The notes beneath the pieces are model-generated. The model did not search any database, was not told the origin of the DNA, and worked only from the letters and a program-made list of their open reading frames with translations. From NCBI GenBank assembly GCA_012862495.1, contig BLSG01000343.1, forward strand, positions 59,984 through 123,983: 64,000 nucleotides of DNA, in the 5' to 3' direction. The number at the start of each line of letters is the position of its first letter. Position 1 is the first letter of the stretch. The DNA comes from Thraustochytrium aureum (Eukaryota). This document shows positions 11,701 through 47,319 of this stretch, piece by piece. The position numbers were made by a program, and so were the translations under genes.

Positions 11701-12685
11701 CTGGGCCGTTGTCGAGGTTGGGAACCTTGACACATCCAAGGTGCCCTTGTCTCTGGCGTACACGCGGTCGCTCTACTTTTCTGTCACAATGTTCACCACA
11801 GTGGGGTTTGGCGATTTGGTCCCGAAGACGTTGGCGGAAACGGTGGTGGCCACCTTTGTTTTGCTGGTGAGCCTCTTCATCTATGCCGACCTCGTCGCCA
11901 ACGTAACGACGCTTATTCAGAACGCGGACGCCGCAAGCAACCGCCAAGGCACGACCCATGCTGCGATCACCCGAATGCTGCTCGCCAGGTCTGTGGACCT
12001 GCGCATCGTGGATCAGGTGGAGGAGTTCTTCCAGTCCAACTTGCTTTTTGCCAGGTTTGGCGTCCGCGAGTCTGAAATCCTCGCCGTCCTGCCTGGGTCG
12101 ATCCGGGCTGAAGTGGCCGAGCACCTTCACTTGGCGAGGCTGACAGAGGATTCCTGCCTTTGTTACCTCCCAAAGTTTGCCCTCGGGATGATCGCCAACG
12201 CACTTCGCTATCGGTGCATGCTCACAGGGGACATATTCGGGTGCGAAGGGACCACGGTGACTGAGATGGCGCTGGTCTACTCGGGCTGCCTTCACCTGAT
12301 TGCAGAGTCTGGCGACGCCTGCAACCCTGCAAACGCCAAGAACGCGATCCCTGACTTTGAGCGCACCAACACCCCGCCGCAGCTGATCAACGCGGTCAAG
12401 CGGGCCAGTAGCAAAGCCCTTTCGACGGCGTCGTTTGCATCGTCCAACGTTATGGGGCGGCCGGTAAGCCCTGGAGATCTTGTTGGGCACGAAGGTTTGC
12501 TCGGCGAAGATATGGTGTGGACCGCAGTCAGTACCACCGTGTCAGAGGTTTACGTTGTCGACTGCGCTCTGCTTGGCGAAATCATCGCATTGTACCCCGA
12601 CTGCCAGGCCGATGTGCAACAAGCCGCCCGCCAAAAGGTGGACTTGCTCAAGACGGCTGAAGGCTTCCGCCGGCTCGCGTCCTGA
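5768..12685 (+). CDS. Four-repeat cyclic-nucleotide-domain K+ channel (CNGK/tetraKCNG-like); 5' end in gap; frameshifted
   Basis: Four K+ selectivity filters: TCGFGD (~6825), TVGYGD (~8547), TVGFGD (~10314), TVGFGD (~11798). Each is preceded by an S4-like basic helix (e.g. LRLLKLARVLQLR) and followed by a C-linker and CNBD-like region. Spans ORFs 5556..8852, 8849..9394, 9042..11057 and 10913..12685. Confidence 0.85.
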
Positions 12686-13935: not shown

Positions 13936-14667
13936 NNNNNNNNNNNNNNNNNNNNNNNNNNNNNNNNNNNNNNNNNNNNNNNNNNNNNNNNNNNNNNNNN
14001 NNNNNNNNNNNNNNNNNNNNNNNNNNNNNNNNNNNNNNNNNNNNNNNNNNNNNNNNNNNNNNNNNNNNNNNNNNNNNNNNNNNNNNNNNNNNNNNNNNNN
14101 NNNNNNNNNNNNNNNNNNNNNNNNNNNNNNNNNNNNNNNNNNNNNNNNNNNNNNNNNNNNNNNNNNNNNNNNNNNNNNNNNNNNNNNNNNNNNNNNNNNN
14201 NNNNNNNNNNNNNNNNNNNNNNNNNNNNNNNNNNNNNNNNNNNNNNNNNNNNNNNNNNNNNNNNNNNNNNNNNNNNNNNNNNNNNNNNNNNNNNNNNNNN
14301 NNNNNNNNNNNNNNNNNNNNNNNNNNNNNNNNNNNNNNNNNNNNNNNNNNNNNNNNNNNNNNNNNNNNNNNNNNNNNNNNNNNNNNNNNNNNNNNNNNNN
14401 NNNNNNNNNNNNNNNNNNNNNNNNNNNNNNNNNNNNNNNNNNNNNNNNNNNNNNNNNNNNNNNNNNNNNNNNNNNNNNNNNNNNNNNNNNNNNNNNNNNN
14501 NNNNNNNNNNNNNNNNNNNNNNNNNNNNNNNNNNNNNNNNNNNNNNNNNNNNNNNNNNNNNNNNNNNNNNNNNNNNNNNNNNNNNNNNNNNNNNNNNNNN
14601 NNNNNNNNNNNNNNNNNNNNNNCGTGCGCGAGCGAGGCGGGCAGCGCGGCAGGCGAGCAAGGCGGAG

Positions 14668-20600: not shown

Positions 20601-23600
20601 GCCTTCAATCCTGCGCTTGGAAACCCGTGGAGCCACCAGCGTTTCCACTTTGGCCGAGTACGAGCACGCGATCACCGTACTTGCGCGCCACGTGCAGCGT
20701 GCGGCCGCAACGTTGGCGGCGAACGATCATGAGAAGGGCAAAGGGCGCTCCGCCGGCTTTGCAGAGCTCTTTTGCGCAGGTTCAATTCGCAGGCGTTCTC
20801 GTGTCTATCAATGAGCTCTTTGTTCGAACAATTCTCAAGGCGATGGCAAGGCTCGACGAAATTCTCGCACATACCACGTCAAAGGCCTCGGTGCAAGAAG
20901 AGAAACACGATGCGCCAGCATCCGCCTTGCCGGCCGCTGAGTTTGCGGCTCCGACGCTGCTGTGCGGAATCAACGCCGCAGTGGAGCTGCATTCTGTCTA
21001 CGTCCATTTCGATCCAAGTCAACGGCGCGACGTTTCCAAGGGGCTGCACAACCCGCGGGCCACAACTTTGAGTTCGGCCGGTGATGTCGGCCGCGCACAG
21101 AGCATCGGTTTGGTGCGGCGGCCAAGCCGAGGTGCGGCCCCGAGCATGACGAGCGAGCGGGAAGCGGCCTCCTGCGAAAACGACGTCTCGGCGACCCTCG
21201 GGCTCTCTCTCTCAATCAGCTACGCAGCAAGGCAGTCGTGCGAGGTAGTCTCGCTCGGAATGGACCGCGTCACGCTGGCGCTGGCGTACAACAAAGCTCT
21301 TGTCCGACAGGACCGCGCAAAGCAGCGTACGGACCGGAGGCCGGACATATCCGGGGCGGACGTCTCGCACTCTCTGCTCAAGCCCTGGAAAGGCGTCCTC
21401 AACTATGCCCTCTTCCGCAACCCGCAGGACTCGGCCAGGGTTTTCCGCCAGGTGACTGGGGAGTTTGCCCCGGCACGCTTTTCGGTGTGGACAACAGATC
21501 TTATTGCGCTGGCGCATCTCGGAAACAGTGCCGCCGCGCTGGCCGAGCTAGGAACAGCGGAAAACGAAGCGAGGCCGTCGGGCGAGAGCTCTGCCGGTCC
21601 AGGCCATCAGAGCGCCCCGCTGACGCAGCCAACAAATGCCCTGCGCGGCCTCTCTGATGCAGCCGATGCACGCGCGCCGCCCGAGAACGTGAGAGCGGAC
21701 GCTCTCGTGGAATCTACGGACGGCATGCCCGCAAGGATTCGCCTCGCTATCCGGCACCCCGCCTCGATATTGGCCTTGGTTCAAGGGGGCGCCTCCGCCG
21801 TGGTCAGCTCCAAAGCTTTCGGTGAGCTCGAGCTCTTTGCAGCACGTCTGGAGAGTCTCCTCCACCTGCACCAGCCGGTGGAGCCGTCGTCAGCATGCGA
21901 TCCCTTGACCACAGCGGAGGTGCGCGAAGCTGAACTCGCCGCACGCGCGTTTCGTCGCATGCTGTTTGGCTTGCCACAGGCTTTGGATTGGGTCAACGAC
22001 GTCACGCGTGTCATTGGCGCCTCCAGCGCGCATTGGGCAATCGAAGTAGTGACCCTTTTGCGCATCGACTTAGCCGAGCGCGCGGACTCTGATGGCCCAG
22101 ACCAGTGCGCGGAGGGCGTGCACCAGGCAAGGTTGTCGACACGTGCTCCGCTCCGCCCAGTCGTGGAACATGAAGACGACTCTGACATCGATGCAGATGA
22201 CGAAGACGAAGAAAGACCTTGTGCCAGCGGGGTGGGCATAAGCGACTCGTCAAGCGGGGCATCGGGCAATGGGGTGGCCGACGAACTTGCCAGCGGCGTG
22301 TATGACCAAGCAACGCTCGTGTTGTCTGGAATCCAGCTCGAGCTCGTCAAAGAAGTCCTTCGTGTGGAGACTTCGCTTGAAACATTTTTGCCGGTAATCC
22401 TCGTCGAAGTAGGCAACGTGCACGCGCGAGCCGAGTCCAACTCCGCCTACACGGACGATCTCGTGCTCGCGATGCTTGTCAGCCTAGAGTCACGCTACTA
22501 CAACCGACGCATCGGGTCGTGGGAGCATCTCATCGAGCCATGGTCCCAAGTCAAAGTCAGCCTGTGCGTTGCAGAGGGTCGACAGGGAATCAACTTTGAC
22601 GTTGACTCTTACAATCGGCTCAACATCAACGTGTCTGAGGACCTGCTCGCCCTGCTTCTGCAGCTTCAAAACGACGTCAACGACACTCTGGAGCGCTTGT
22701 CGGCCCTGTCCGAGGCTGCCGCGGCGCGAAAGGCTGCGCAGCGTGTTGAACGCGCGACGACTCTATCATACAACGCGACAGCGCGACAAGGTCCAACATT
22801 GCATGGACCTGCTCCAGCTCGGAGCATAGCGCAGCGAAGCACTTCAAAAGCGCCAAAGCTCTTGGTCACAAAAGCGGGAGAGAAGGGGTTGGCCGACCAT
22901 TGGATCGTCAACAACACGGGCGTGGATATCGTCATGTACGACATGTTTCAGATTGGTTGTAGTTACAAAGGCCTCCTGAAGGTGGAGTATCGCGATGGCT
23001 GGGACCTCCCGAGCCACGCGAGGTGGCGAGAGCAGCCAAACATTCGGCTCACGCTTTTGCCATTCAAGCGCAAGTTCACCGTCGGGAGCCTCTCGGGCCC
23101 AGGAGATGGACCGGCAATGGACATTGAGCCAACGAAGGGCTCGCAGCTACAGGGCAAGGCTAGATNNNNNNNNNNNNNNNNNNNNNNNNNNNNNNNNNNN
23201 NNNNNNNNNNNNNNNNNNNNNNNNNNNNNNNNNNNNNNNNNNNNNNNNNNNNNNNNNNNNNNNNNNNNNNNNNNNNNNNNNNNNNNNNNNNNNNNNNNNN
23301 NNNNNNNNNNNNNNNNNNNNNNNNNNNNNNNACGCACGGATCGATCGAAGGACCCGGAGAATACCCCAACGAGCGGGTAGGTCAGCGCCGTCGTATTGCG
23401 GAGGACGACAGCGACGACGATTTGCTGGGGAGCGGGTCGAGCTCGGGCTCCGACGCGGACGCGGAGGACGAAAACATGCACGGCCAGGTTGGGGCTCTGT
23501 TTACACTCGAATATCCGGGCGCAAGCAGCGAAGAGGTGCCCCAGATGCTGATTGAAGTAAAGGACAGCTCAGGGAGGTACCTAAGCGCCAAGATTGACCT

Positions 23601-26600
23601 GGTGACGCACATCCTCTTCCCAAACGTCACAAGCACCGAGTGGTTCCCGCTCGGCAGTGACGACCAGAGCGATGGGGACGCGGCGGAGATGCTGTTGTCG
23701 ATCCGCTTTGAAATGAGCGAGTCGGAGGCTTCTGGGTCCTCCGGGAAATGCGAGCTAACCCGCTCATATGGCGGGCGCGACACTGCGATCAAGCCCTTTC
23801 GCGTCGCCTCTGGCGCTACGGTGCCAATGGACTTTGGCCTAGTGCCCAAAAAGCACTGGTTCAAGTCCTTCAATCGTGAAGGCATCAACGAAGTGATTGC
23901 GAAGCGACACTTTACAACGCTGCGCTCGGTTGCGCTCGACTTTTCCCGCGGTGTTGACTTCAAGAGCCGGGACACACCATTATTGTTGATAGTGCCGGTC
24001 GACGACACTGGCGAGTTTATGCTCAGCGCAGATGTTCGGCCCGACTTGGTCGTTGACGAGGGCGCTCAAAGAGGGCTCCGCAAGCCTGTTGTTCTGTCTC
24101 AGCCACTATATGAGCTGAGCCAGGCAGGCGAGATGGGAGCGCAGAAAGGGGGACGACGTGGGCGCAAGTCGAGCAGCTGGCGCGAGCCTGGCGGACGCGG
24201 ACAAGTTGTCGGGGCCACGCTTGAGCCGGGAGGTGCAAGCAAACCCCCGAAAGAGGCGCCGACGTTCCGGTTCAATCTTCTCGCGACGAGCGCGATGCGG
24301 GACCGCAAAAGGCGCGTGCTCTTCCTCGAATCGCCGGTCAAGTTTTCGAACAGGGCCTCGGTTCCGATTGAAGTGATGGTGTGCGAAGCTGGATACCTAA
24401 CGTCGGCAGAAGGCAAGCACGACCTCTTTCCAACCCTACAGCACGTCTCGGTGCACGATAGCAGGGTCGCGAGCAGCGGCAACTTTCTTCGGTCATATGG
24501 CCTTGGGGTCGACTCGCTCTTCGTGATGTCCAGGTCGACCAAGTGGGTCGACGGGGGCTATGTGCTGACGGACGGACTCGAGGACGCAGCTACGCTTGAG
24601 GTCTCAACGGTGCCTGCTCGCGACGCTGCCGAAGACCATCCCGGCAAGCCTGGTACGGACAGGTCTTCTGCAACGTCCAGCCTGTCGTCCTTTGTGGAGT
24701 TCACATTCAATTCCCCACGCATGATCTGCATGTACAGGGTCACGCCAACGGAGCTGCAGGTTTCTCCCGAGCAGCACGCCGGCCTCGGCACTGCTGAGCG
24801 CGGCGCCCAAGTCGACTCGTCGCGAATCGGGGTGGATCCCCTTGGTTGGGTCGTTTTCGGAAGGCGTTATTCAGAGGAAGAAGTCGAAGATCCTGGGGAA
24901 TGGGAGGAGCTCGACCGACGAACCAACATCAGCTTCGACGACAAGCGGCGCCCCAAGCAGTTCTTCTTGCCTCTCGCAGACCAATTTCGCTGCTACAGGA
25001 TCCAGTTTTTCGCTCGGCCGCGCCCCCGCGACGCCGTGCAGAGCCCGATCGACGCTCCCGAAAGCGCCCCCGAGACCATCGACCTCTTCCGAGCGGCGTG
25101 TGGCCCGAATGGGACATTCCCCATCGCCTTGTCCAGTATCAATCTCTACGAGGAATCCTTCCCATCAAGCTCTCGGGTCAGAGAGCTTGATCAAGCGATG
25201 ATTCGCGCTTCATTGGCAAAGCTCGCTCTTGACCCCGAGGCCGAAAACTTGGCGATGAGCTCTGACGGCGAGGAGGATGACGGGGGCGAAGGGGACGGGA
25301 CGCTTTTGGAGCGAGAACGCGCTCCGGTGTTGTCGCGTGGGCCGAGCTCTCGTCCTGGACGTTCTTCATTTCGTCATCCTCAGGTGGAGGAGGAGGGCGT
25401 CACCGATGATGGGTGGCGATGCATGCTCTGCGCTGAGACGAACCCGCGCTCGACTTCAGAATGCACTTTGTGCGGCAAGGTGCGACCCATGAGACGCCGC
25501 CGAAAGCTGGCCAGCGCCGATTTCGCAGAGTCGCAGTTCGGGCAAATGCTCAGCAGCGAGCACCTGCGCCTTCGGCGCAAGCTGCAGGCAGCGGCTATCC
25601 GACGGCGCGCAATAGCGTCGGCACAACAATACCAGGCGCAGAGACAGCATCAAAGCGCAGCGAAGCTTTCTGCCATTGACGAGCTCGACCCAGACAGCGC
25701 CAACCTGCAAGCGACGTTGCGCGTTGGGCCCCACAGTGACCAGTTCAAGCTCAAGCGCAAGGTTGTAACCCTGGGGCACGAGGGGCTAGCAATCGCCAAC
25801 GCAGAGAATCGGACAACGGCGCTGTACCAGCACTTGGCGCACCACCGTCTCAATCCCGAGAGCGTCGCGGACGCCTTCGGGATTCACAATCGCGGCTTGC
25901 CTGAAACGCCCACCCAGCGACGTCGTGGGCGTGGGAAGGGCCCCGCCGTCGTCGAGTTCACGCCGACAACGGAGGTGATCGTTCTCGACCGAAAGAATCA
26001 TCTCATACTGGTGGTTGAGAAAGATCGGGCGCGTGCGGCGGCCGACGGCGAGGCTGGAGTGAGCGCTGGAGCACGCATCGTGCACGGCTTGTCGCTTGCG
26101 GACGGGATATTGCTTGCCCTCCCTGATTCGCGAACGCTCAGGTTGTGGCTCGAATCCATCCAAGCCACTCTCTCGCGAGTCCGGCGTGCAAACCAAGGTC
26201 TGGATGTTGAGATCGAGGCCTTTAGTGGGATGCGGCGTGTTGTGGCACCCGGTGAGATCCTTGCCATCCCTCTCAACTTTTTATACAGTCGGACCAAATG
26301 GTCGCTGTTTATCAAGCCAGAGATTCGGCCGGGGCAGCGGGACGTGACTTGGGCGCGCGTTCTCGAGCACGTGTCCGCCCAAGCGCTCAACATGCCTGAT
26401 ATTGTTCCGGATGTCATTTGCGCGAAAAGGCCTGTGCCTGTCGTAGACTTTGGGGATGGGCCTCTTGATGAGGAAGTTGCCTCTGTGGATTCGTACGCCT
26501 TTTCGGCGACCTTCAAGCAAAGCTTCGTCAAGAGCTATCGCGCAGATGACGACGAGGCGCGGAACGGCCGCCAGGAGAATAACCTCGTGCCTCGAGTGAC

Positions 26601-29600
26601 GATCGCTGTGCGGCCCTGGGTTGTACTCTCCAACTCGCTTCCGTACACGCTCGAGATCCGGCTGTTCGTCCCAGCAACGGCGCAGGAGGAAGATGCGGAC
26701 GCTCGCGCCGAGTCAGAGTACAGAGCGCACGAGAGCCGCTCTCGCGGTGGATTTGGCACAAGAGGGTCGCGTGCCACGAAGAACAAGTCGGACGATGAAG
26801 ACGACGCGGTGTCTGATGATTCCGGAGTGGCGGCAAAAAGTGGAGTCGGGTCAGAGCGCTCCTTTGTCCTTGGCGAAGGGAAGGGATCCGTGCTTGTTGA
26901 GCCTGGTGGCGAAATCGCAATCTGCCGCGTCGCCAAGGACACGGCGGTGAGGTTCCGTCTGCCGGACTTGGGCACGGGCTGGTCGGCACCGCATCGCTTT
27001 CTCGAAATCGGGATCGTCGCGGGTAAGCAGCAGTCGGCAAGCACCAAGTCTGGCCCGGAAAGTGCTTCGGCGGAGGAGCGGCGCGCTGGGTTGCGGAGTG
27101 GAAGCGTGGTCTCGTTCTGGGTGCCTGGTTCGGCGGAGACCAGTCTCTCGGACCTCCTTGCCGAAGCGGAGATCGAGCGATCCCAAGACCCCTCCGGCCC
27201 TCTGCGCGTGGTTGTTTACTCGCCATTCTGGTTGTACAACTTTAGCGACTCGGTCCTCGTCGTGCGACCGAGCACGACATTCCTCCAGAAAGACAAGTCC
27301 GTGGACACCGTTCTCGCGCCACACTTTAGCGGGGAGTGTACGAAGTCGAGCGAGCGCACACTGCTGCCATTCATCCGAGCTGTCAACTCAAAGGGGTTGC
27401 AGGTCGCCGTCGCGCTTCCGCGAGACCTCAGGAATGTTCTCGGCCAATTCTCTGGCGAAACGCGGCAGGTCGGCGAGAACAACTGGATGCTGGGTTCGCG
27501 AGACTTTCGCGACCTGTCCGCGTCGGGCCACAGCGGGATCCCGTCGGCGCGCGACTTTTTGGTATCGTCCTGGTGCAAGCCCATCAAGATCAATCTCTCC
27601 TCGGGAACGCTGCAGAAGCGGTCGTTCAGGTTTGTGCTCAACTCGCTTACGGTTTTGCGGCGCGAGATTGGTATTGAGGTGGTCACAGGCGGCTCGAACG
27701 CCTTCACGCGAAGCGTGCAAATCATCTTCCGGTGCAGGTACCTGCTCGTGAACCGGGTCCCAGCCACCTTGCTGCATTTCACGCAGGACCTCCCGGAAGA
27801 TGAAGCACCGGGAACCTGCTTGAGCGAGCGCCGTGCAGAGCGCGAGATGCGAACGCTTCATGCCAAATTCTTCAAGCGAGCTGATGTCGAAGGACCATCA
27901 GCCAGAGCAGAGCAGGTCGACGGCCCAAGGGGAGACTTTGGCGAGCCAAGCGGAGCTGACGGCGGCCCGTCCTCGCCCCCCGCGCGGCGAAGCTCGCGCG
28001 TAGACTCTGGTGACACGTTTATAGAGCACGGGGATGGGGACGAAGTCGTGGACGGTTTTCACGCACCAGGGGTCGATGTCGTCGGGTTCGATTCGTACAA
28101 GGGCAGCTATCTTCTGCCTCGCCCCACAGAGTTGCGGTCCTACCATTTTGGCGGCTTTCGCAGCCAATATTTGCATCGCGAGTCGCTCTTCTCTTTCACT
28201 GCTTGCGACGCGGCTGGGAAATCACAGACGCTGCCGAGCGCGCCTCTAAGCGCAGATCGCGAGGTGGAGATTAGTGTCCTCCTTCGATCCCCTGCCGGCA
28301 GTAGCCGCCCCGAGCGCGGGGCGAGGCGCATCCGCGTTTCCGTGCGCGAGGAAGGTGCGACGACGTTTGTCCTGTTCGACGAGGACCAGACGCCCGGGCC
28401 AGTCCCTCGGCCTTTCTACCTGCTGCGAAACAGGAGTTCATACCCGATCGAGGTCTGGCAAGAGGGGGTCGCTCGAACTTGCCGCAACCTAGTCCTGCTG
28501 CCCTCCGACCAATTTGCGTTCGCGTGGGACCTGCCATCTAGAAGCCCAGTGGTGAATGCGCGCGCTTTGATGGAGCTGGCCGAGGACCAGGCCGAAGCGG
28601 TGCGGTACAAGGACCTTGTGTGGGAAAGCGGGGGCGAAGATCCCCCGCCCGCCGCCTTTAAAGCGATCTCGCGTCAGGAGCACTTTTCATTGACTCGGTC
28701 CAGCAGTTCGACAGCATCCTTGTCAACGAGGTGCGCCAAGAGTTTGGGTTTTCTCGCGACGTGATCCAGAATCACCTGGTCTCGGCTCGCGTCGCCGTCG
28801 AAGGTTTCATTGACGAGTCCACGCGCATACTCGAGTTTCGCGATGAGCGTGAGAGCGGGCGAAAGCGGGTCGAGCGCTCTCGCACCTCCCAAGCAGGCTC
28901 CATTGCGTCAGGGGGCGAGACGACGGGATCTGCTCCGATAGGATTTGGCGGGAGCATTGACGAGCCTGCCGCTGGGTTGTTCTTTGTCTCCCTCCGCGTT
29001 GTGCTCAAGGCTGGACCCCGCCTCAGTCCCCAAAAGGCGTACTCAGTTGTAGCACGTTGCGGAGGCAAGAGCCGCGAGTTCAACGCGGAGGTCTTGGCGA
29101 GCGACGATGTTGACGATGCGATGCTGAGCGTGTTTGAGCCTGTCGAATTCAGCCTCAGCGACCGGCCGAGCCAGGTTTTCTTGCTGGTGTACGAGCGCGC
29201 CACGAAGGCGGGTGCCGAAAACACCCTCGTGCAGACGGGCACAGTGGCTCTTCATGGCCAGGTGTGGAGGCTTGAAGAGAAAGGCACCAGCGCGGGATGG
29301 CTGCACGTCAACAGCTTGGCTTGGCTCGAAATCGCGCAGAAAGTCGAAGAGCAAGAGTTGTCGCGTCGTCGCCGAGTGGAAGAACTCCTGTCGCATGGCA
29401 TGCCACTGCGAAAGTTGTCGCAGCATGCGACCACAGGCGAGCAAGTCGTTGAAGCCCTCGAGCGGCCGCTATCAAAGTCAGCACGGAAACCCTTGTCGGG
29501 CGCTGTGCGAGGCGCGGCCCCCGAATCGTCACAGGGCGTGTCTCGGGCAGCAGGTTCGGAGTCGTTCGGGACGTCAGCGGGCGGGGTCCTTTCGAGCGAA

Positions 29601-31785
29601 GCTTCGAGCCGGTCTGACGTGAAGCGATCNNNNNNNNNNNNNNNNNNNNNNNNNNNNNNNNNNNNNNNNNNNNNNNNNNNNNNNNNNNNNNNNNNNNNNN
29701 NNNNNNNNNNNNNNNNNNNNNNNNNNNNNNNNNNNNNNNCGGTCTGACGTGAAGCGATCGCTCATGTTTGAGATGCTGAACGATTCGCTGCGAGCGCAAG
29801 GCACCTCGTTGAGGCCACAGCGAGCCCTGGACGAGGCAGCTCCGCTGGACGCGGGCAGCCCGGGAGGACCAGAGCGACAGGACTCGTGCGAAACCAACGA
29901 TACACGCATGGCAATCGACTATTGGCCAACGTACACGCTGCACGACCCGAACGAGGCCAAGGGATCGATTGCTGAGGCACTCGACCCGCGGAAGATTTCG
30001 TTTGCCCTGCAGAAGCGGTTCTTGCACAAGCTGGAGGCCGTCTCGGCCTTGAACTCTGAGGCGTGGATCCAGGTGCGCTGCGTTTCACGAGTTGCCTTGC
30101 CCGGGCTGGTGCGCACTGGTTCGAGGGCCCTTGCTGCCGGCAAGCCTCAATCCAACGGGGCGGGGGAGCACCGGAATGCCGCGTTTCGCCCGGTGCCTGG
30201 TGCAGATAGCGCTGCGGCACCCACGCCCACGCCGCCGCCCCTTATCCTGCATCTTTTCCTGACCTCTATCGGTGTTTCATTCGTGCACGCCGAGCGGCGG
30301 CGCGAGGTGTGCTACGTCATTGCGCAGCGCGTAGGCATCAAGGCGAACTTTGAGGCGGGGGCCAATGTGTTGTCGACGACCATCGGCAACTTTCAGATAG
30401 ACAACCACGACCCGGGCTCGACGTTTCAATTGGTTCTATACCCGGAGGAACTTGTCCCACCGACTGCTCCCGACGGCTCGCAGCTCAAGTACCCGTCTCC
30501 CGAATACTTTGTTGCCCGCCGGAACATGTTTCGGCTCGACCTTATCGCGCGCCAGAACCGGCAGTTCCTGGAGGTCGAGTCGTTCGAGATCGACATCGCC
30601 CCGATCAAGCTCAATGTGGAGGAGGCGTTTATAGGGAATGCGCTTCGCCTCGTCTCCAAGGCGTTATCGAGCGAAGAGGTCACAGAGGCGGTCGGTGCGA
30701 TGCGGCTGAGACGTGAAATCTTGCACCCGCCTTCCATCAACGCAGAGTTTGTGAGCAACATCCGCGCCCTGGGTGACTTTGTGTTTGTGCACTACTTTCG
30801 GGTCGCCGACGTGGTGGTGGTTCTTAACGCGAGGCTGCAGGGGGGCGCAGACCTCAAGGGGCAGGATGAGCTCAGCTTGCAGCTGCGCCATCTTGTGCCG
30901 AAGCTCTCGATCGACGAGCTCCGCTTGCGGTTCCGCGAGTTTGCGCGATCCAACCGGTTCGAGCCCAAGGCCGAGTTTTCGCGCAAGCTCGAGGGCCACA
31001 TATGGAGCGAAGTGCTCTATGGCAATGCCTCCAAGGTACTTGCGCAGACGAATGTGGTCGTCAATCCGCTCCCGTCCGCAAAGATCATCCTCAAGGGCCT
31101 CTCTGATGTGTTCTGCCAACCATACAAGCGCGCCCACTTGGGAGTTCGGGGCTGCTGCACGGGTTGCCAGCTGGGCCTCACGTCGCTCATCGCCAACCTC
31201 TCCTCGGGCGTGACAGAAATCGTCTATTCTTCGACAAGACTGGCTGTCATTGCAGTCGTAGAGGTTGCAGGGGCAGACAGGTTTGATGTGGTCTCGCGGC
31301 CAACGGTGATCACCCTCGCGGCGGTTCGCGAAGTTTCGCATGCCATTTCGAACTCATCTTCCAGGATCTCGTACGACCTGCTCAACGACCGCGTGCACGC
31401 CGCGCCTGTGCGCGCACCGCGCAAGTTCAACCGCCGTGGAAAGCTAACACTCTATGGACCAGGCAACTTTCCTCTTGACGAGGAGCTCGTCCGCCAGACG
31501 CGTGCTTCTGCAATCATCCGCCGTCGCTGGGAGGCTGCGAAGACGATCCGTCGGCTCCGTGAGAAGGCTAGGCAAGACGGCCTGCTCGCCGTTGCCATGG
31601 CCGACTTGGACCAGCTCCGAGGCGTCTCCGCGGCGCGTCCTGGGATTGCCATGCGCTTTTGGCTCAGTATGAAGGGCCTCGCCAGTGCCTTCAAGACCGA
31701 GTTCCAGAACGCGCGCAACACGGAGGCCGAGACGGAGGACCCCGATGCCGCTATTGAGTCCGACAAGCTCCTCCCGTCCCGCTAG
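14668..31785 (+). CDS. VPS13: VPS13-family bridge-like lipid transfer protein (~5500 aa; gaps and frameshifts)
   Basis: Chorein-N start 'MVLSGLVKRVLQRFLDAFVEG...PVRLVRAYVGKVTLDVPFARLGSRPVKLNLQDVLVLA'. Also 'YYNRRIGSWEHLIEPW...LNINVS'; VAB/SHR-binding-like repeats ('VVVYSPFWLYNFS', 'YLLVNR', 'YLLRNRS...VWQ...FAWDLP'); and C-terminal 'IGVSFV...REVCY...IGNFQIDNH'. Spans ORFs starting at 14668, 17270, 19087, 20267, 23422, 28731 and 29749. Confidence 0.88.
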
Positions 31786-31990: not shown

Positions 31991-34900
31991 TACCCTCACT
32001 CTGGCCATTCCCGTGTAGAATTTTAAAAAGGCCAACAAATTGGCGGTGCCTGTCGTCATCCAGACCCAATAGCAGTCCAACCCATCACGTATGCTCGCTC
32101 GCGTCTGCAACGTCACAAGCTCCGCTGGTCATGCAACCTGGCACTGGAGGCTTGGAAGTGAGGAAAACGGCCACATCTGTCCGATCTAACTGAACTGATG
32201 GGCCAGATCTTGAAATTCAAGTTAACATGATGAACAAAGGCAGCCTTCTTTTGCCCAAGTCGGAGAAATAGGTAGTAACAGAGCAAGTCAATGACGTTCC
32301 CGAGCTTGGAACGCGACTTCGGCTGAGGGATGGATTCGAGCGCTTGGCTTACACGAGAAGGCAATACGCAACAGCTCAACCCTTGATGTTCCCGATTAAA
32401 AATTTAAGTTTCGACTTGTGCAGAGAATGTGGCTCGGGGTCTGCGTTTTCGCTTACTTGACGCTCCAGCATGAGGTTGCGCTGGTGGTTCGGTATCATCT
32501 TGCCCCGGCCCTGCACTATGCTCGGGACACTCCGTCACATTGAGACTTTGCGTTGGCGGACCGTCACTCGTTGTCAAGTAAGTCGCCTTCTCCGGGAAGC
32601 GAGACAGGATACAAGGCGGGTAGGGGACGCACTGGAGCGAGTGAAAGTCAGCAAAGCAGTGCTTGCAAATCGGGATCCTGCATACCGAGCACTGCTTACT
32701 CGTACTCCGACCCATCCGCGAAGTGTACTTGGCGTCGTGCTTCTGGTTCACGCAGAACTTGCAACAAACACTGCACGTCTGGTTTGGTGGCCCCTTCACG
32801 AGAGCGTGTGTCTCGTCTCGGTTCAGGCGACGGCGAAGGAACGCAGGGTCCTTGTTTGCGGCAAAGAGAGCGTTGTACTTGACCTCCGTCGTCTTCACAA
32901 CGATGTCAGGCTGCTGGGGAGGCTCACTTTGTGCAAACACCTGGGGGGTGATTCTGCCTTTCGCGGCCTTGTTGATATTGAGCTTCTCCGGTTTATCCAA
33001 ACCCTTGGTGATGCCCATCAGGAAGACACGGTATGTAGTTCCTTCAGAACGCTCTCGACAAAACTTTGGAAAGGACTGGTACTCCTTGATACGGCGTATC
33101 CCCAAAACGAGCCAACGCGTTGACGCGGTAAGCGTTGTAGAGGCAATAGTCAAGGTGAACCAACCAGAAAAGCGATGACGGCTGCATAGGCCCGTAATCC
33201 GGTTTCTGATTGTTGATCGCCCGCCGCATTGTGTCCGCACCCGCCATGAAGTGGTTCGAGGCAGAAACCGTTTTAGGTACCAGCCTTCTGCACCGTGGGG
33301 GCGTGCCATGCTCCGAACGTCCGCGTCATGCGCCTTCCAGAGCCCAAGCGTCAAGTCTACGGTGTGGTGCTCGATCGCATAGCCGTAAGCCGGGTGACGG
33401 TCAGGCGCAATCCGCGGGGGGGCACCCTCGTCGCCGTACGCGAAGCCCATGTGACGGTCTTGGATAAGCTTGAAGAAACGGACCCACGCACCGCGCTGGG
33501 CGGTGGTGACCTGAATAAGCACCGCACGCGAGATCGAAGTCCTCGTCGAGAATACGACAAGAGTATAGTCCAGCCCAAGAACAGCCGCGTGGTGAATAGC
33601 CTGCGCCCTGTGGGATGCGTTGGGAACTGCATGACGAAACTGAGCTGTCCCTGCCGTAACCTCCTCAAAGCGAGATGTCGACGCAAGCTCGAGACGAGCC
33701 TCTGTGTTGTCTGTGCAAGAGGTCTTGAACTCTAGCGCAACAAGACACTGAAACTCGTAGCCGGAGCCCTCGTCGTGCTTGCGAAGGAGAGCAGCAACGC
33801 CGTCAGGAGAGTCTGCCGCAAAAGTGCAGCCGCGAGTAGCCACGAGACCATACTCCTTCACGTGGTCAAGAGCAAACTTCCTCTTCGAAGCGTCCTCGAC
33901 GAACGCACCGATGCCTCGCATGATAGAAGCCTCGTTCGCAGAGCCAACTCGAAGGGGGCTCAATGCGTTTCGAAACTCGTTTGGCTTCATGAACCAGAAG
34001 CGCATCATCAATCGAAGCAACGCGATTTGGGCGTTTGCGCCATTCTCGTCGTCGCTGGACGACTCTGGACCCAGTATCGCATTGCTAACGGGGTCTCCGA
34101 CACGTTCGTCTTCGTCCTCGCAATCGTCGTCAGAGTTGGATAGAGCAGCAGAATGGCGGGTCGCGGATGACGAGTGCATTGGCTGCAGCGTGGTCGGCGT
34201 TGATGTGGAGCTGGACTGTGCAGCGTCTGATGGGCTCGGTGGAGGATGCGTGGCAGCGGCCTGCCATTGGGGCGCGATGATCGCACCAGTGTCTCGATGC
34301 AGCTTTGCAAAGACCGCCGCGAGGCCTTGCTTGGTGTTCGTTTTGGGCATTGACGAGAGCATGCCCGAGTCGACGAGCCCCTTCGCCGCGGCCCGCATCT
34401 CGTCCAGGCTCATGTTTTCTTTGTAGTACACCGCGGTCGCTCGGGAGGCCCCTTTCCCGTTTGAGGGAGGGCGTGCCGCCTTGACTCGATGCTTTGCGGG
34501 CACAGCACTCACCGGGATCTCGGCATGGACCACAGATGTTGCGTTGTTGGCTGTGAGCCGCATTTGGGGATTGAGTTGCGCAATGCTCTTCAAAGTCGTG
34601 TGCAGAACGTTGAGCTCTGGCGTGTCAACATACGCTGCTTCAGCATAGTTAAGCATCACGAACGCGGCAGAGCTGGTGCACCGGAATGCGCGAGCAAGGA
34701 ACCAGGCCGGCGTGCGCTGGTGCTGTGTGAGCACGTAGATCCCTGACTCCATCTTTGCATAGGCAAACAAGATCTTGTCCCGTTTGGTGGCGCTCTCGCT
34801 CAACGCCTCCATTGGTGCGACAGTGTGGGGTCTCCGCGCCACTCCGCCTGGGGAGGTGGGATTCGTACCCTTTGTCACTTCGTAAACGAAGCGAGGGCCT

Positions 34901-36502
34901 TTGAAGCACTTGACCGACGTGATGAGCCGGGCAACCCTTGCCTTGCCCTGTCCGTGCCTTTGGGCCAAAGCCTCGACCCCAAGGCTCCGGTTCTCGGCTA
35001 CAAAAGCCGTTCGCGTACCAAAGAGGCCAACATTGACACGCCCGTTTGAAGTCGCCTCTGTAGGAGTTCGCTCGGCCGTCGCGAATGGGAAAGATTTGGT
35101 GTCTCGGATGGTCCCGAGGAACTGGATCCCAACGTTCTTGAGCATGCTGAGAATGTTGGTCATCTCGTCGCCTTTGGAGAGGGCCAAGTACCCACGGTCG
35201 ATGAAAACGACAAGTTTCCGGGCTTCGTGCAAGGGGATCCTCTTGGCTTGTGCTACCCCAAAAAGCGTTGCCAAGACCTCCTCCACGACGCCCACCGTGC
35301 TGGAAGTGAGTTCCTCGAAGCATGTTGAGAGAACCAGCTGCGTTCCGACACTGACGACGGCGTGCACGACAGGTTGCGTCTTCTTTTTCCGAGTTGTCTG
35401 CAGCCTAAAACCACTCTTTTCCCACGTCTTGGAGGTGTACGGCAGCTTGTCGTCATCCAGGTTGACCCAGGTGACGCCAGGCACGAAGAACAACGAGCTC
35501 CAGTACGTTCGACAAATGTCTTGGACTTTTCGCAGGTCTGGGTCGACGCTGTACACGGGGTTGAAGTCTCCTTCCAATGACGACCTCGCACGCTTCGAAC
35601 TGAATGGCTTGTCCATTTCGGCCATAGCCTTTCTCACGCGTTCGTGAGCGGGTATGTGGTCCATGCACAGGTTGAGACCTAAATTCATCCGTTTGTAGTC
35701 TGCAATAGACATGCGGAATACACGAAGGTGCACTTCGACCCGCAAGAACATGAATATATCTCGCAGGTCGATGGACTGGTCAGCACTCTGAAGCCACTTC
35801 GCAAACTCGCTCAAATAGTTGGGCGGCAGGCAGGCCAGGAAGCAGGTGGTGGGGTCCGTCAAGTCCGTAGACCCCGAGCCCTCCACAACCTTGCCCACTT
35901 TGTCGAGGATAAACTCCGCCTCGGCCTTCGCCTTCTCCAACAAGATGGAATCGGCGGAGTTGTACTCAATTGTGACGTCGTCGACGCGAAGACGGTTGCT
36001 TTTGAGCTCCCCATGGTACTCCGAGCCAGCATCAGAGAAAGAGGTGTAGAACCACCCAGTTCGGGAACTGGGCGGCAACGGCGGCTCCAGTTCCGGACTT
36101 TCGTCTTCTGAAGCCCACGACGACCCGGACGACTCGTCGTCGTCTGTGTCACTCTGCTCACGCCCATGCAGCATTCTAGCTCCGCCACCGCCGAGCGCAG
36201 AGTCCTGCGCGCACTTCCCAATGCGCTGCCTATGCGCTGCACTCTCCGCCCTTTGATTTCCTTGCGGTTCACTCGTCGCCGCTGCAACCAGCTTGCTGCT
36301 CGTGCTCTGCCTGATGCTACTCTGCCCTGGAGGTGGCGGGTAGATGCTCACGTGTTCAAAAAAATCCGGTTGCTCCAATGAGCACAGCAGATTTCAAGAA
36401 CGAGGCCGGCAAGGGGAGGCACGATTCTGAACGTGAAAAAAAGGTTAAAATGTTCTGCCGATGTTTTAACTGAAATCTCCAGTTAAAAAAGGCGTGAGGG
36501 TA
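31991..36502 (-). mobile_element. piggyBac-related DNA transposon carrying a YqaJ-like nuclease (~4.5 kb)
   Basis: Inverted termini TACCCTCAC (31991-31999) and GTGAGGGTA (36494-36502), i.e. piggyBac-like CCCT...AGGG ends flanked by TA. It has AT-rich subterminal tracts, is visibly less GC-rich than its flanks, holds one large transposase ORF, and sits between two host genes. Confidence 0.75.
32404..36174 (-). CDS. piggyBac-type DDD transposase with inserted YqaJ/lambda-exonuclease-like PD-(D/E)XK domain and C-terminal Cys-rich domain
   Basis: D1 'VNLDDDKLPY' (~35455), D2 'VFIDRGYL' (~35197), then 'GIQFLGTIR'. YqaJ motifs 'QRTPAWFLARAFRCTSS', 'GSANE', 'EYGL...ADSPDGV', 'LEFKT', 'HRAQ'. D3 'SASNHFMAGADTM' and 'LFWLVHLDYCLYNAY' are in a shifted frame (~33100-33310). 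C-terminal 'CSVC...RSTSKQCSVCRIPICKHCFADFH'. First ATG is at 36174; the frame is open to 36378. Confidence 0.85.
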   Translation of the reverse strand: MLHGREQSDTDDDESSGSSWASEDESPELEPPLPPSSRTGWFYTSFSDAGSEYHGELKSNRLRVDDVTIEYNSADSILLEKAKAEAEFILDKVGKVVEGSGSTDLTDPTTCFLACLPPNYLSEFAKWLQSADQSIDLRDIFMFLRVEVHLRVFRMSIADYKRMNLGLNLCMDHIPAHERVRKAMAEMDKPFSSKRARSSLEGDFNPVYSVDPDLRKVQDICRTYWSSLFFVPGVTWVNLDDDKLPYTSKTWEKSGFRLQTTRKKKTQPVVHAVVSVGTQLVLSTCFEELTSSTVGVVEEVLATLFGVAQAKRIPLHEARKLVVFIDRGYLALSKGDEMTNILSMLKNVGIQFLGTIRDTKSFPFATAERTPTEATSNGRVNVGLFGTRTAFVAENRSLGVEALAQRHGQGKARVARLITSVKCFKGPRFVYEVTKGTNPTSPGGVARRPHTVAPMEALSESATKRDKILFAYAKMESGIYVLTQHQRTPAWFLARAFRCTSSAAFVMLNYAEAAYVDTPELNVLHTTLKSIAQLNPQMRLTANNATSVVHAEIPVSAVPAKHRVKAARPPSNGKGASRATAVYYKENMSLDEMRAAAKGLVDSGMLSSMPKTNTKQGLAAVFAKLHRDTGAIIAPQWQAAATHPPPSPSDAAQSSSTSTPTTLQPMHSSSATRHSAALSNSDDDCEDEDERVGDPVSNAILGPESSSDDENGANAQIALLRLMMRFWFMKPNEFRNALSPLRVGSANEASIMRGIGAFVEDASKRKFALDHVKEYGLVATRGCTFAADSPDGVAALLRKHDEGSGYEFQCLVALEFKTSCTDNTEARLELASTSRFEEVTAGTAQFRHAVPNASHRAQAIHHAAVLGLDYTLVVFSTRTSISRAVLIQVTTAQRGAWVRFFKLIQDRHMGFAYGDEGAPPRIAPDRHPAYGYAIEHHTVDLTLGLWKAHDADVRSMARPHGAEGWYLKRFLPRTTSWRVRTQCGGRSTIRNRITGLCSRHRFSGWFTLTIASTTLTASTRWLVLGIRRIKEYQSFPKFCRERSEGTTYRVFLMGITKGLDKPEKLNINKAAKGRITPQVFAQSEPPQQPDIVVKTTEVKYNALFAANKDPAFLRRRLNRDETHALVKGPPNQTCSVCCKFCVNQKHDAKYTSRMGRSTSKQCSVCRIPICKHCFADFHSLQCVPYPPCILSRFPEKATYLTTSDGPPTQSLNVTECPEHSAGPGQDDTEPPAQPHAGASSKRKRRPRATFSAQVET

Positions 36503-36804
36503 GCTACTCACTCTACGCGCCCGGAGAGAACACCAGTCTCACCAGCGAAGCGCGAGTCCTGCCCAAAGCGTCCTTCAGGGCCACCACGTCGCATGCCGTG
36601 CCATCCGTCTCCACGGATCACGCACGGAGAGCGACGTGGCTGGCCGTGCTGGCGGTCCTGGGTCCTGTCAGGAATTCAAAAAACAACCGAAGGCCAAAAG
36701 GAGCGCGCGAGCGAGCAGAGCCGCAATCGGCGCTGCAGCGGTCCAGCGCGCCGGCCTGCCTGCCTGCTGCGTGCGTGCGTGCGTGCGTGCGTGCGACGCC
36801 AGCG

Positions 36805-39374
36805 ATGGCGCACGTTGGACGCTCGCTGGGCGCGGGCGGGGCTGGGGCGAGCGATGCGCCTCGCGGCGATCTGCTCGGCGGCGCAGGTTCCGGGGATGCC
36901 CAGGTGAAATGGTCTGGGCTGGTGGCAGCGACGCGCTGCAGCCTGGACAAGTGGGCGAAGGCGGCCGAGACTGCGCGAGAGGGCGGCGACGGAGGCGTGG
37001 AGCGAGTCGCGGAGGAGCTCAAGGGGAACTTGGGGCTCGTTGACACGGCGATCGAGGGGATGAAGAACTGCGCCGCGGGTGAACCGCAACTGCTTGCCAG
37101 GGCCTGCCTGGACTTGGCCGAGTTGAACAGCATGCTGCTGCAGCTTCGAGTGGACAATTTTGAGGTGGACACAAGGTCCTGGACGCACGTTGTGGACCTG
37201 TGCACGGCCCACCACAAGCTCGTCGGCTCGGAGCTGGAGCTCGACGCGATGGTCGGCGTCGCCATGGCCGCGGTCGAGGACGGCATCATGACCCTCCAAA
37301 TCGCGCTGCACGCGCCGCCTAGCAGCCCACCGTCCGCGCTTCCGAAGCAGCGCTCGCTTCTGACGTCGGCCAAGTTTATCCGAAACAACGTCGGCAGGGT
37401 GGGCTTGCTTTTGCGAATCGCGCGCCGCGTGCGGGCCAAGGCGTGGCGCGAGGCCCTTGCGAGCGCCGCGCCAGCGAGCGCTCTTGAGGAGGCAGCGGTC
37501 TCCCCAGAGGGGCGTCTTGCGTGCCGTGTCGCCCTTGCGCTTGAGGGCCTAGCGCGGTGCTGTCAGCAGGCCACGGAGCGGTCCCGGTTCCCCGGCTTCC
37601 CGCCTGTCCTGCCCAAGCTTCGAGCGAGCGTGGCCAAGCTTGCCGATGCAGTTGCCCATCCTGCTCCAGCGGGAAGCTTGATCGCCGCGACTGTAGTGAA
37701 CGAGCTGTGCCGCACCGCGCACATCAACCTCGCGGCGTTGACATGGGCGCGAATCGGGGCAGCAGTTGGCGAGTCGCCCCTTCTCGGCGGCGAGGGAGAC
37801 CCCGCAGGGTACACTTGCGTCGTGGACGCTTTTGCCGCCTTCTCAACGCGGTGAGCTCGAGTAGGGACATGTCAGTCTACGCGGAGAGCGACACGGAGAA
37901 CATAATCGACAACGCCGCGGCTGGGTACGTGGGGCTTTGGAAGGGGGGCGCGCCCGAAGCCGGCCTTCCCGCTTGGCCCAGGGCGGAGAATGAGCTAGTG
38001 GACATGTTGGCGGCTGGCCCGCCGCACGCGAGGGAGTGGGCGGCGGCTGTCGTTGCCAGAGTCGTTCAACTGGCTGCCAACTCGGAGGCGGGCGGCCAAG
38101 TGCCCGCGCGACGGCTCTTGGCCGCGGCGGCAAGGCGTGCTGCAGTCACCGCACAGGGNNNNNNNNNNNNNNNNNNNNNNNNNNNNNNNNNNNNNNNNNN
38201 NNNNNNNNNNNNNNNNNNNNNNNNNNNNNNNNNNNNNNNNNNNNNNNNNNNNNNNNNNNNNNNNNNNNNNNNNNNNNNNNNNNNNNNNNNNNNNNNNNNN
38301 NNNNNNNNNNNNNNNNNNNNNNNNNNNNNNNNNNNNNNNNNNNNNNNNNNNNNNNNNNNNNNNNNNNNNNNNNNNNNNNNNNNNNNNNNNNNNNNNNNNN
38401 CACAGGTGGACACGTCGCTGCACGTATTGAGCGATGGTGGTGCGGGGACGGGGGAACGCGTCCTTGCATTGCACTCGTTGATGTGGGCTGTTGATGCCGC
38501 GCTTGCGCTAGGCGGGCCAGGCTCTGGGCCGTTCTTGGCTGCCACTGCGTGTCGCGCGTTGCGAGTAGTCGCTGACTCTGCCCGGCGTGCGAGTGGATCT
38601 CCCGCCCAGCTCTGTGGGGCCCTGGACGAAGCCGTGCTTGACCTCTGCGCGCTTGCCCTTGGCCAGCATGTTGGCGCCGCACTTGAGACCGAGCACGTGA
38701 TTCTAGTGGCTGGCTCCGTCAGGGCCTTGGTGGCAAGGCAGGGCCAAGCAGCTTGTGGCAGGGCCTGCCCCTTGCTGGCTAGCTTTGCTGGTATCCCGGC
38801 GCGCTCCGCGGCCGCCGCGGACGCCGTGCATGCCATCCGAGCGCTAGCAGGCGATATGTTTGTCTCCGCGCGCGGGGACGTGGTGGCGGAAGCTCTTGTG
38901 CGCGAGGCTTTTGGTTATCTCGTGAGCCACTTTCCGGTCAAGTCGCAAGGTGTGGTAGGCTCGCTTCTTGCTGATGAGGCCCGCCCAGATTTCGTACGCC
39001 ACCTGCAGCGCAAAAAGCAGGCCGCGACTCAGGCGTCGGACGTCGTGCTCAATAGAGAGCTTGACGTCCCGTGGCCCACTGGCAAGAAGCGCTTGCGGGC
39101 GCCGTTGGCAGCGCTCGCCGTCAGCGTTGTCGACACGGTCAGGGAGCATTGCATCAAGCGGGCCAAGCTCAGCGAATGCCCAAGAGCAGGCTCGGATGCG
39201 CACCGAGTTCGGGGGGCGTTGGAGCGCATGCGTCGCGCCTGGGGCGAGCTGCGCCCAATGATGCGCAAGCGCGCCGACCCCGCGAGCCCCGAGTTGGACG
39301 GGCTTGCCGAGCTCCAAAAGGGTATTTTGCTGCTCGCGCGCGAGATGGAAAGCGAGATTGCCGATCTGGCATAA
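36805..39374 (+). CDS. Helical hypothetical protein, possibly FIRRM/C1orf112-like (frameshift near 37850; internal gap)
   Basis: Long Ala/Leu-rich ORFs 36598..37854 and 37557..39374, ATG at 36805. The segments 'DTRSWTHVVDLCTAHHKLVGSELE' and 'ALVREAFGYLV' loosely recall C1orf112 from memory. The coding call is solid; the family call is weak. Confidence 0.45.
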
Positions 39375-46528: not shown

Positions 46529-47120
46529 CGTCCGCGCGCCAATCCCGCCGATCTCCACGCCGTCTCAGGACCAGCCGCGCGCGTCGAGCGCGCTCGCGCG
46601 ACGCCAGAACACGAGCAGGACCTGTGGCGCCGCAACGAAGCAGGAGCAACAACCACGACAAAAACAACTACAAATGCCGCCCAAACGCGGCGCAGGCAGC
46701 CCGCCGCAGGCCGCAAGGCCACAGGCAGACTGGCAGACAAGACTGGCAGGCTGGCTCACTGACTCGCTGACTGACGCACTCTCCTTGCGCTGCCGAGCGC
46801 CGCGCGCCGCACGCAGCCAAACGCGCTCTGCCGCGTCGTGTTTTCGGCCCAACACTGCGGCTTTCACAGAAACGCAGCGTGTGCGCTACCGAGCCGCGCT
46901 CACGTCACATGGGGGCTCGAATGACGGGGTTGGAGCACGGCGTAACGGATCTTGGCGCATGCGGCGGGCGCCGGGATGAGTTGACGATGAGGATGTGGAT
47001 GGACGCGGCCAGAGTCGGCGTGGCTGCGTGGAGCGCGGTTGGAAGAGGACGTGGCTGTTTGTTGTGAACGTGGACGGGGCTACGGTGAGGCTCTGTGTCC
47101 ACGTCTACTCGAGCAGGTTA

Positions 47121-47284
47121 CGTCAAGGCGTCGTGGCTGCGTCTATTCGTGGCTGCGTCTATTCGCTGTGGCTGCGTCTATTCGCTGTGGCAGCGTCAAG
47201 GCCTCGTGGCAGCGTCCGGTTGTCGTGGCTGCGTCAAGGCGTCGTGGCTGCGTCAAGGCCCGCGTCTATTCGCTGTGGCAGCGC
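47121..47284. repeat. Irregular minisatellite with core GTGGC(T/A)GCGTC
   Basis: About 8 copies of gtggctgcgtc/gtggcagcgtc, followed by alternating tails tattcgct and aaggcgtc. Confidence 0.8.
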
Positions 47285-47319
47285 CCGGGTGTCGAAGCGC
47301 GCGACCGCAGCGGCTAGGG

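What the first reader, a model, noticed from the sequence alone, without database searches (positions are those of the whole stretch)
32404..36378. piggyBac-type transposase with a whole YqaJ/lambda-exonuclease-like nuclease inserted inside its DDD catalytic core
Seen in the sequence, in order: D1 'NLDDDKLPY' (35446-35460), D2 'FIDRGY' (35188-35199), 'FLGTIR', YqaJ motif I 'LTQHQRTPAWFLARAFRCTSS' (~34670-34730), 'VGSANE', 'GL...ADSPDG' (33799-33810), 'LEFK' (33724-33732), 'HRAQ', D3 'NHFMAGAD' (33233-33256), 'LDYCLYNAY', and a Cys-rich tail ending 'CSVCRIPICKHCFADFH'. Established: these match the piggyBac layout (xDExM, DNxF/Y, GTVR, YNxxMGGVD, D..xNAY, C-terminal Cys-rich domain) and the YqaJ/Red-alpha PD-(D/E)XK motifs. 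Canonical piggyBac has only a ~100-aa spacing between D2 and D3; here it is ~650 aa. ISL2EU elements carry YqaJ as a separate ORF. Inference: a two-nuclease transposase in which a 5'->3' exonuclease could process donor ends or target DNA, or promote homology-directed repair. The PD and ExK residues are intact. It may match a little-studied Repbase group (e.g. piggyBacX); I cannot check that here.
Basis: partly seen in the sequence, partly recalled or inferred. Interest (0 to 1): 0.92.

Follow-up and report, generated by a model that had tools for sequence, protein, structure and literature searches.

The report
PiggyBac transposase with built-in exonuclease
This is a damaged copy of a eukaryotic jumping gene whose piggyBac-type cut-and-paste enzyme carries a second, lambda-exonuclease-like domain inside its catalytic core, a design shared by a wide protist family; that domain likely chews back the broken DNA ends left by each jump.

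Summary
Observation confirmed. The minus-strand gene (36174-32404) has no Pfam hit itself, but has 383 relatives at E<=1e-3. All 50 held relatives with both transposase halves carry the nuclease core between them. An AlphaFold model of a relative (pLDDT 85) superposes on piggyBac as one body across the insert (Z 20.9, 376 residues) and on lambda exonuclease within it (Z 14.6). All 34 relatives with an intact DDD triad keep the nuclease E-D-E-K site, and the two domain trees largely agree, so this is an old fusion, not a nested insertion. A SAP-like motif splits the nuclease. This copy has two compensating frameshifts around D3; one is absent from two public runs. A contig in one run lacks the whole 4.2-kb stretch. 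No terminal inverted repeats or two-sided target duplication were found. The nuclease's role is inferred: most likely resection of donor ends. Nine paper searches found no description, but the RepeatMasker class PiggyBac-X could be this group (untested). This scan found the family before on other DNA.

The parts
32404..36174 (-). Transposase-exonuclease gene, about 1255 codons, ATG 36174-36172 to TAA 32406-32404, no intron needed; two compensating frameshifts
   Evidence: an intact relative is one 1241-aa ORF in raw DNA (L004)
34830..36054 (-). N-terminal half of the piggyBac-like core (helical DNA-binding part, RNase H strands, insertion-domain strands); boundaries approximate
35452..35454 (-). 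Catalytic D1 (equivalent of piggyBac D268 by profile alignment)
   Evidence: (D in 73 of 84 covering rows)
35197..35199 (-). Catalytic D2 (equivalent of D346)
   Evidence: (D in 75 of 86 covering rows)
33331..34743 (-). Inserted lambda-exonuclease/YqaJ-like domain, including its own internal SAP-like motif and linker
34669..34731 (-). Exonuclease motif I (Q 34719-17, W 34704-02, R 34692-90)
34291..34434 (-). SAP-like helical motif inside the nuclease (by alignment; no Pfam hit in this copy)
   Evidence: Pfam SAP hit in 14 of 39 relatives, 9 above the curated cut-off
33601..33948 (-). Exonuclease catalytic core: E 33933-31, S 33810-08, D 33804-02, E 33732-30, K 33726-24, Q 33603-01, all intact
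33105..33313 (-). D3 segment read in the shifted frame; D3 at 33235-33233; Ser at 33259-57 where 80 of 83 covering rows have Trp
   Evidence: (E 4e-21 to the family D3 profile)
33310..33320 (.). First frameshift (approximate position); not bridged by any laid contig
33104..33105 (.). Second frameshift; contigs of runs X1 and X2 have one base fewer here
32641..32775 (-). C-terminal cysteine-rich domain (CxxC...CxxC...CxxCxxxxH)
   Evidence: weak zf-Tnp_2 hits in 3 of 39 relatives
32272..36513 (.). 4242-bp stretch skipped by one contig of run X1 and replaced by 38 other letters; approximate extent of the element
   Evidence: tables 5 and 5c; table 7
32268..32271 (-). CTAT directly outside the downstream joint; possible target site, not matched at the other end

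Best explanation
This is a broken copy of a piggyBac-superfamily DNA transposon whose single protein holds a DDD transposase and, inserted inside it, a lambda-exonuclease-like nuclease that likely resects the 5' strands of the chromosome ends left at the donor site. Shown: the architecture, its family-wide conservation, and intact residues at both predicted active sites. Predicted: the two transposase halves fold into one piggyBac core, with the nuclease hung at the C-terminal edge of the insertion domain, just before the W-N..G.D motif. Inferred: the transposase excises by the piggyBac hairpin route, since the equivalents of Y439 and N440 are kept as Trp and Asn. The nuclease, helped by the SAP motif, would then load on the 5'-phosphorylated flank ends and chew them back. 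That would block the seamless re-ligation typical of piggyBac and steer repair to the sister chromatid or homologue, which can restore the element and so raise copy number, or to end-joining with filler. This copy is probably decaying.
For: Family of 383 hits, many full-length relatives of about 1030-1450 aa; nuclease core between the halves in 50 of 50. Profile hits to piggyBat, piggyBac and exonuclease 3syy in the expected positions; the C-terminal half rejoins piggyBac at residue 433, the end of its insertion domain, which lines the target DNA channel (PMC7351741, passages). Model pLDDT 84.9, pTM 0.81. VIA: 6x67 Z 20.9, rmsd 3.9, 376 aligned, model 95-1052 on chain 117-514; lambda exonuclease 3sm4 Z 14.6, rmsd 3.6, 204 of 228. 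34 of 34 rows with DDD keep E-D-E-K, and W, R, S, Q of the nuclease are kept in all 34; that these form the 5'-phosphate pocket in lambda exonuclease is recalled. Domain trees share 7 of 10 and 9 of 12 supported splits. One X1 contig lacks the element and has 38 filler letters, not a clean four-base site. Between the window and X2, 10 of 15 in-gene substitutions change the residue, close to neutral.
Against: No activity was measured, and nothing here identifies the nuclease's substrate. No terminal inverted repeat was found in the window or in L004, and no target duplication on both sides. The X1 joint is one contig of depth 3.6 with a 41-letter short side; its filler resembles the window's own junction sequence, so it may be an internal deletion or a diverged allele rather than an excision footprint. 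The fold was predicted for relative P0001 (36% identical), not for the window protein, and I had no coordinates to measure distances between sites. Two supported splits conflict between the domain trees. Lambda exonuclease works as a ring-shaped trimer (recalled; PDB title 'toroidal'), which a piggyBac dimer would not supply in the same way.
Confidence: 0.42

Rival explanations
1. The nuclease trims the four-base 5' flap left on the transposon ends after hairpin opening. That would free the element from needing the same palindromic sequence at donor and target, allowing a non-TTAA or asymmetric target such as CTAT.
For: No TTAA at the X1 joints; CTAT sits at one joint; the loop after D1 aligns with a four-residue gap against the piggyBac omega loop, which organises TTAA recognition; human MGME1 and Cas4 are weaker fold matches, Z 7-8.
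Against: The flap is not needed for piggyBac reactions in vitro (PMC7351741 passage), and host flap nucleases could remove it (own knowledge). The best fold matches are duplex-end exonucleases. Target duplication not established here.
Confidence: 0.28
2. The nuclease is a TnsA-like second-strand cutter: the DDD site nicks and transfers the 3' end while the PD-(D/E)XK site cuts the 5' strand, replacing the hairpin step.
For: Tn7 pairs a PD-(D/E)XK nuclease with a DDE transposase (recalled). The nuclease site is never lost when DDD is intact, 34 of 34.
Against: The hairpin-contacting positions Y439/N440 are kept as Trp (80 of 83) and Asn (76 of 82). Top fold matches of the insert are exonucleases.
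Confidence: 0.17
3. The nuclease is an unrelated gene or element that inserted recently into a piggyBac gene.
For: The insert is large, and this copy is damaged right behind it.
Against: In frame and at the same place in 50 of 50 relatives with both halves, at 19-38% identity; one clean ORF in L004; largely congruent trees.
Confidence: 0.02
4. This locus is a host-domesticated, immobile gene (for example in DNA repair) and its breaks are assembly errors only.
For: No inverted repeats found; X2, from another study, appears to carry it at the same place; one frameshift is absent from X1 and X2; the window also has an indel that splits a neighbouring host gene.
Against: One X1 contig lacks the whole stretch; 10 of 15 differences from X2 are non-synonymous; both catalytic sets are intact across a patchily distributed family.
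Confidence: 0.11

Closest known systems
piggyBac (Trichoplusia ni, PDB 6x67) and piggyBat (PDB 9c0f) transposases; Pfam PF13843
   Same: DDD triad with D1-D2 spacing 78-100 (piggyBac 78), GT motif, P..x.[YW]N..G.D, N-x-Y helix, C-terminal Cys-rich domain, same predicted core fold.
   Different: D2-D3 spacing 488-834 residues against 101; nuclease plus SAP motif inserted; Trp for Y439; no TTAA or inverted repeats found here.
Lambda exonuclease / YqaJ family (PDB 3sm4, 1avq, 3syy; PF09588)
   Same: Fold (Z 14.0-14.6) and Q-W-R-TS, G..NE, SPDG, ExK, Y..Q motifs.
   Different: Fused inside a transposase and itself split by a SAP-like motif and an acidic linker; Pfam YqaJ hits are weak, 4 of 39 relatives and none above the cut-off.
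KolobokE
   Same: [quoted passage not shown]
   Different: [quoted passage not shown]
ISL2EU (PHIS superfamily)
   Same: Carries a YqaJ domain of unknown role (PMC4482050, passages).
   Different: YqaJ is in a second ORF; DDE/THAP transposase; AT target duplication; reported there from animals only.
RepeatMasker/Repbase class PiggyBac-X
   Same: The label is used for Plasmodiophora brassicae repeats (10.1101/2025.07.30.667784, one passage), a species that has a member of this family (P0028).
   Different: No sequence or definition was available; identity with this family is neither shown nor excluded.

Membership tests
piggyBac superfamily | RNase H-fold DDD transposase homologous to piggyBac | tested here: met
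   Family profile E 3.7e-16 and 3.8e-11; Z 20.9 over 376 residues for the model of P0001; PF13843 above cut-off in 1 of 39 relatives, weak in 3 more
piggyBac superfamily | C-terminal cysteine-rich domain | tested here: met
   Conserved Cys/His columns, aligned to the piggyBac CRD
piggyBac superfamily | Terminal inverted repeats | tested here: inconclusive
   None above shuffles in the window or L004, but the true ends are not fixed
piggyBac superfamily | TTAA target site duplication | tested here: inconclusive
   No TTAA at the X1 joints 32271/36514; TTAA occurs at 32222, 32396 and 36483; ends unresolved
piggyBac superfamily | Hairpin excision and seamless donor repair | not testable with these tools
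   Y439/N440 equivalents kept as W/N; the X1 allele is not seamless but its origin is unclear
canonical piggyBac transposase | About 100 residues between D2 and D3 | tested here: not met
   488-834 in 34 intact relatives; about 654 in the window
lambda exonuclease/YqaJ | PD-(D/E)XK fold with lambda-type motif I | tested here: met
lambda exonuclease/YqaJ | 5'-to-3' exonuclease activity; trimer ring | not testable with these tools
   No assay; no complex prediction run
ISL2EU | YqaJ in a separate ORF beside a PIF/Harbinger-like transposase | tested here: not met
   One ORF; best transposase match is piggyBac
KolobokE | [quoted passage not shown] | tested here: not met
   Nuclease lies between D2 and D3
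PiggyBac-X | Similarity to the Repbase/RepeatMasker PiggyBac-X reference proteins | not testable with these tools
   No such library held; one mention in the paper library

The most novel reading that the evidence does not exclude
An undescribed, ancient lineage of piggyBac-type transposons, spread over diatoms, labyrinthulids, plasmodiophorids, an ichthyosporean and oomycetes, whose one polypeptide holds two working nucleases: the transposase cuts and pastes, and a built-in lambda-type exonuclease resects the donor break so that homologous repair regenerates the element, turning seamless cut-and-paste into a self-copying drive.
Probability: 0.3. Interest if true: 0.88.

Novelty: new variant of a known kind. 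Interest (0 to 1): 0.7.

Why it matters
Several eukaryotic transposon groups have recruited a lambda-exonuclease-like domain (ISL2EU in a second ORF, KolobokE downstream), and the ISL2EU paper states that its role is unknown. Here the domain sits inside the core of piggyBac, a structurally solved transposase, in intact intron-free ORFs. One point mutant could therefore test what the nuclease does in transposition. It also shows that the piggyBac core tolerates a 400-700 residue insert at the end of its insertion domain, which bears on engineering. The family is nearly invisible to Pfam and is annotated as hypothetical, SAP or B-box protein.

Tried and rejected
No whole genome was held, so copy number in the host is unknown; no second copy lies in the window. 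Pfam and PDB sequence searches with the window protein found nothing useful. The word-indexed search with the window protein found no hit; with A1 it found 8. The 'shorter' search covered only 30-43 residue proteins and is uninformative, so insert-free close relatives were sought only among the 158 proteins held. Single-sequence folding of the nuclease core failed (pLDDT 32). Viral contigs: none or two weak motif-I-only hits, not followed. Prokaryotic genomes: none with two clade-specific patterns, a weak test. No RNA holder listed; no evidence on expression. Inverted-repeat searches were negative. Short look-alike words at the ends of L004, the window and the X1 filler were not above chance and were dropped. 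Most named full-length relatives lie on 3.3-7 kb contigs, which fits repeats but also fits short assemblies; not used. The Kojima 2019 review was not held. A second Atlas query did not complete. No complex prediction was run.
Full report
Observation. The minus strand holds a frame open from 36393 to 32404, with the first ATG at 36174. The D3 motifs NHFMAGAD and LDYCLYNAY lie in another frame. A profile of the family's D3 region matches that frame from about 33313 to 33105 (E 4e-21) and the main frame on both sides, so there are two compensating one-base shifts. The host is a eukaryote: neighbours include VPS13, cyclic-nucleotide-gated ion channels, Rgp1 and CFAP58. The window protein alone has no meaningful Pfam or PDB hit.

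Family. A full HMMER scan gave 383 proteins at E<=1e-3, 138 at 1e-10; I saw the best 150. The Atlas gave one cluster at 0.96 with 218 of 256 features shared, 1206 aa, SAP in 20% of 56 members, commonest taxon Oomycota with phylum known for 2. Of 158 proteins held, 50 matched both the D1-D2 and the D3 sub-profile, and all 50 had the nuclease core between them. The sub-profiles were built from 31 of these sequences, four of the 50 are near-duplicates, and the query contained the insert, so this is not a blind test. L004 shows the layout as one intact 1241-aa ORF in raw DNA.

Domain identity. The 150-row profile hit piggyBat (E 3.7e-16; profile 27-324 and 709-866), piggyBac (E 3.8e-11) and exonuclease 3syy (E 0.0013; profile 403-613). 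The 31-row profile gave weaker transposase hits (6x67 4.4e-6, 9c0f 0.24) and several SAP proteins at profile 527-595. Pfam on 39 relatives: DDE_Tnp_1_7 in 4 (1 above cut-off), YqaJ in 4 (none above), SAP in 14 (9 above), zf-Tnp_2 in 3 (none above). AlphaFold2 on relative P0001 gave pLDDT 84.9 and pTM 0.81. Foldseek ranked piggyBac first (E 8e-5), then Tn5 and lambda exonuclease; viral matches were YqaJ-type nucleases and IS4-like transposases. VIA-align superposed piggyBac 117-514 on model 95-1052 in one alignment (Z 20.9, rmsd 3.9, 376 residues), so the halves on either side of the insert close into one core; lambda exonuclease matched model 501-938 (Z 14.6, rmsd 3.6, 204 residues). The C-terminal half rejoins piggyBac at residue 433, the end of the insertion domain 372-433 (PMC7351741, passages).

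Both sites are conserved. Forty of 150 rows covered all seven catalytic columns: 34 had DDD and E-D-E-K, none had DDD with a broken nuclease site, 4 lacked DDD but kept E-D-E-K (these include the window row, off-frame at D3, and truncated P0010), and 2 lacked both. The 34 also keep W, R, S and Q of the nuclease; their role as the 5'-phosphate pocket of lambda exonuclease is recalled, not looked up. D1-D2 spacing is 78-100 and D2-D3 488-834. Trees of the N-terminal transposase half and of the nuclease for 35 long sequences share 7 of 10 and 9 of 12 supported splits, with 2 conflicting pairs and a distance correlation of 0.60. This fits one old insertion inherited with the transposase.

State of this copy. 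Contigs from two studies (X1, X2; X3 gave the same rows as X2) have one base fewer at 33104/33105, and X2 reads Trp where the window reads Ser at the near-invariant Trp before D3. The first shift is not bridged; an X1 contig stops aligning at 33314 with 12 letters left over. X1 also has an extra base at 37834 that puts two neighbouring host ORFs in one frame, so the window assembly probably carries indel errors. Against simple error, 10 of 15 in-gene substitutions between the window and X2 change the residue (two beside the indel and those outside the gene were left out), close to neutral; contig depth is only 2-4 and some contigs may be paralogues. I read the copy as probably decaying.

Mobility. 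One X1 contig joins 32271 to 36514, skipping 4242 bases that hold the gene and little else, with 38 other letters between. Other X1 contigs carry the gene with 0-2 substitutions each, and diverged relatives occur in X1, X2 and X5. No terminal inverted repeat exceeded shuffles in the window or L004. CTAT, a target suggested by an earlier scan note, lies exactly outside the downstream joint, but the upstream end offers only CTAC about a dozen bases inside. Ends and target are unresolved.

Mechanism. piggyBac excises through hairpins, contacts them with Y439 and N440, and leaves ends that re-ligate seamlessly. The family keeps Trp (80 of 83) and Asn (76 of 82) there, so I infer the same chemistry. 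The nuclease is closest to duplex-end 5'-to-3' exonucleases and is attached to the domain that lines the target channel. I favour resection of the donor flanks, promoting homologous repair and copy gain (0.42), over trimming of the transposon-end flap (0.28) and a TnsA-like second-strand cut (0.17). None of these was tested. Confidence in the architecture itself is about 0.97.

Comparison and novelty. It works like piggyBac by fold and motifs and belongs to the superfamily on protein criteria, but fails the canonical D2-D3 spacing; the DNA criteria are unresolved. KolobokE (passages) and ISL2EU (passages) carry a similar nuclease outside the core. Nine answered paper searches listed no description of the internal fusion; I read find-passages of nine papers only and no supplements. 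A 2025 survey of over 13,000 piggyBac subfamilies reports N- and C-terminal fusions and has no occurrence of 'exonuclease' in its main text; its unread supplement lists fusion domains and may bear on this. The label PiggyBac-X occurs once, for P. brassicae; Repbase and Dfam could not be searched, so the group may already be named. This scan noted the same family in at least three other genomes; those are AI notes, not independent support.

Noticed in passing
window 36487-39374 (+): Two overlapping host ORFs (36487-37854 and 37545-39374) fall into one frame with the extra base that run X1 shows behind 37834; probably one gene split by an assembly indel. The first ORF has no Pfam hit; the second was not scanned.
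   Followed up: partly
window 13750-31785 (+): A very long VPS13-like gene with a weak PDZ hit, broken into seven ORFs by N gaps and frame changes; ends about 490 bp from the element's downstream joint.
   Followed up: no
window 5484-12685 (+): Three tandem ORFs holding about four ion-channel units, some with cyclic-nucleotide-binding domains; a further cNMP-binding ORF at 47089-49152.
   Followed up: no
window 32271/36514, run X1: The 38 letters between the joints contain an 11-base tandem duplication and near-repeats of flanking words, as in templated end-joining filler; they also resemble the window's own junction sequence.
   Followed up: partly
run X1 contig of 3937 nt, matching window 33352-33408 and beyond: A diverged, apparently collinear family member at depth 11.6 against about 3 for host contigs; further relatives near 80% identity at 34549-34767 in X1, X2 and X5.
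   Followed up: no
L004 4984-5068: A 31-base, 94% inverted repeat with 23 bases between the arms, about 800 bp downstream of the intact relative.
   Followed up: no
proteins P0013 and P0015: Full-length relatives in which both catalytic sets look degenerate yet the ORF is open; possible domesticated copies.
   Followed up: no
L001 5001-5090, L002 1296-1403: Viral contigs with a weak match to exonuclease motif I only; probably ordinary viral YqaJ genes.
   Followed up: no
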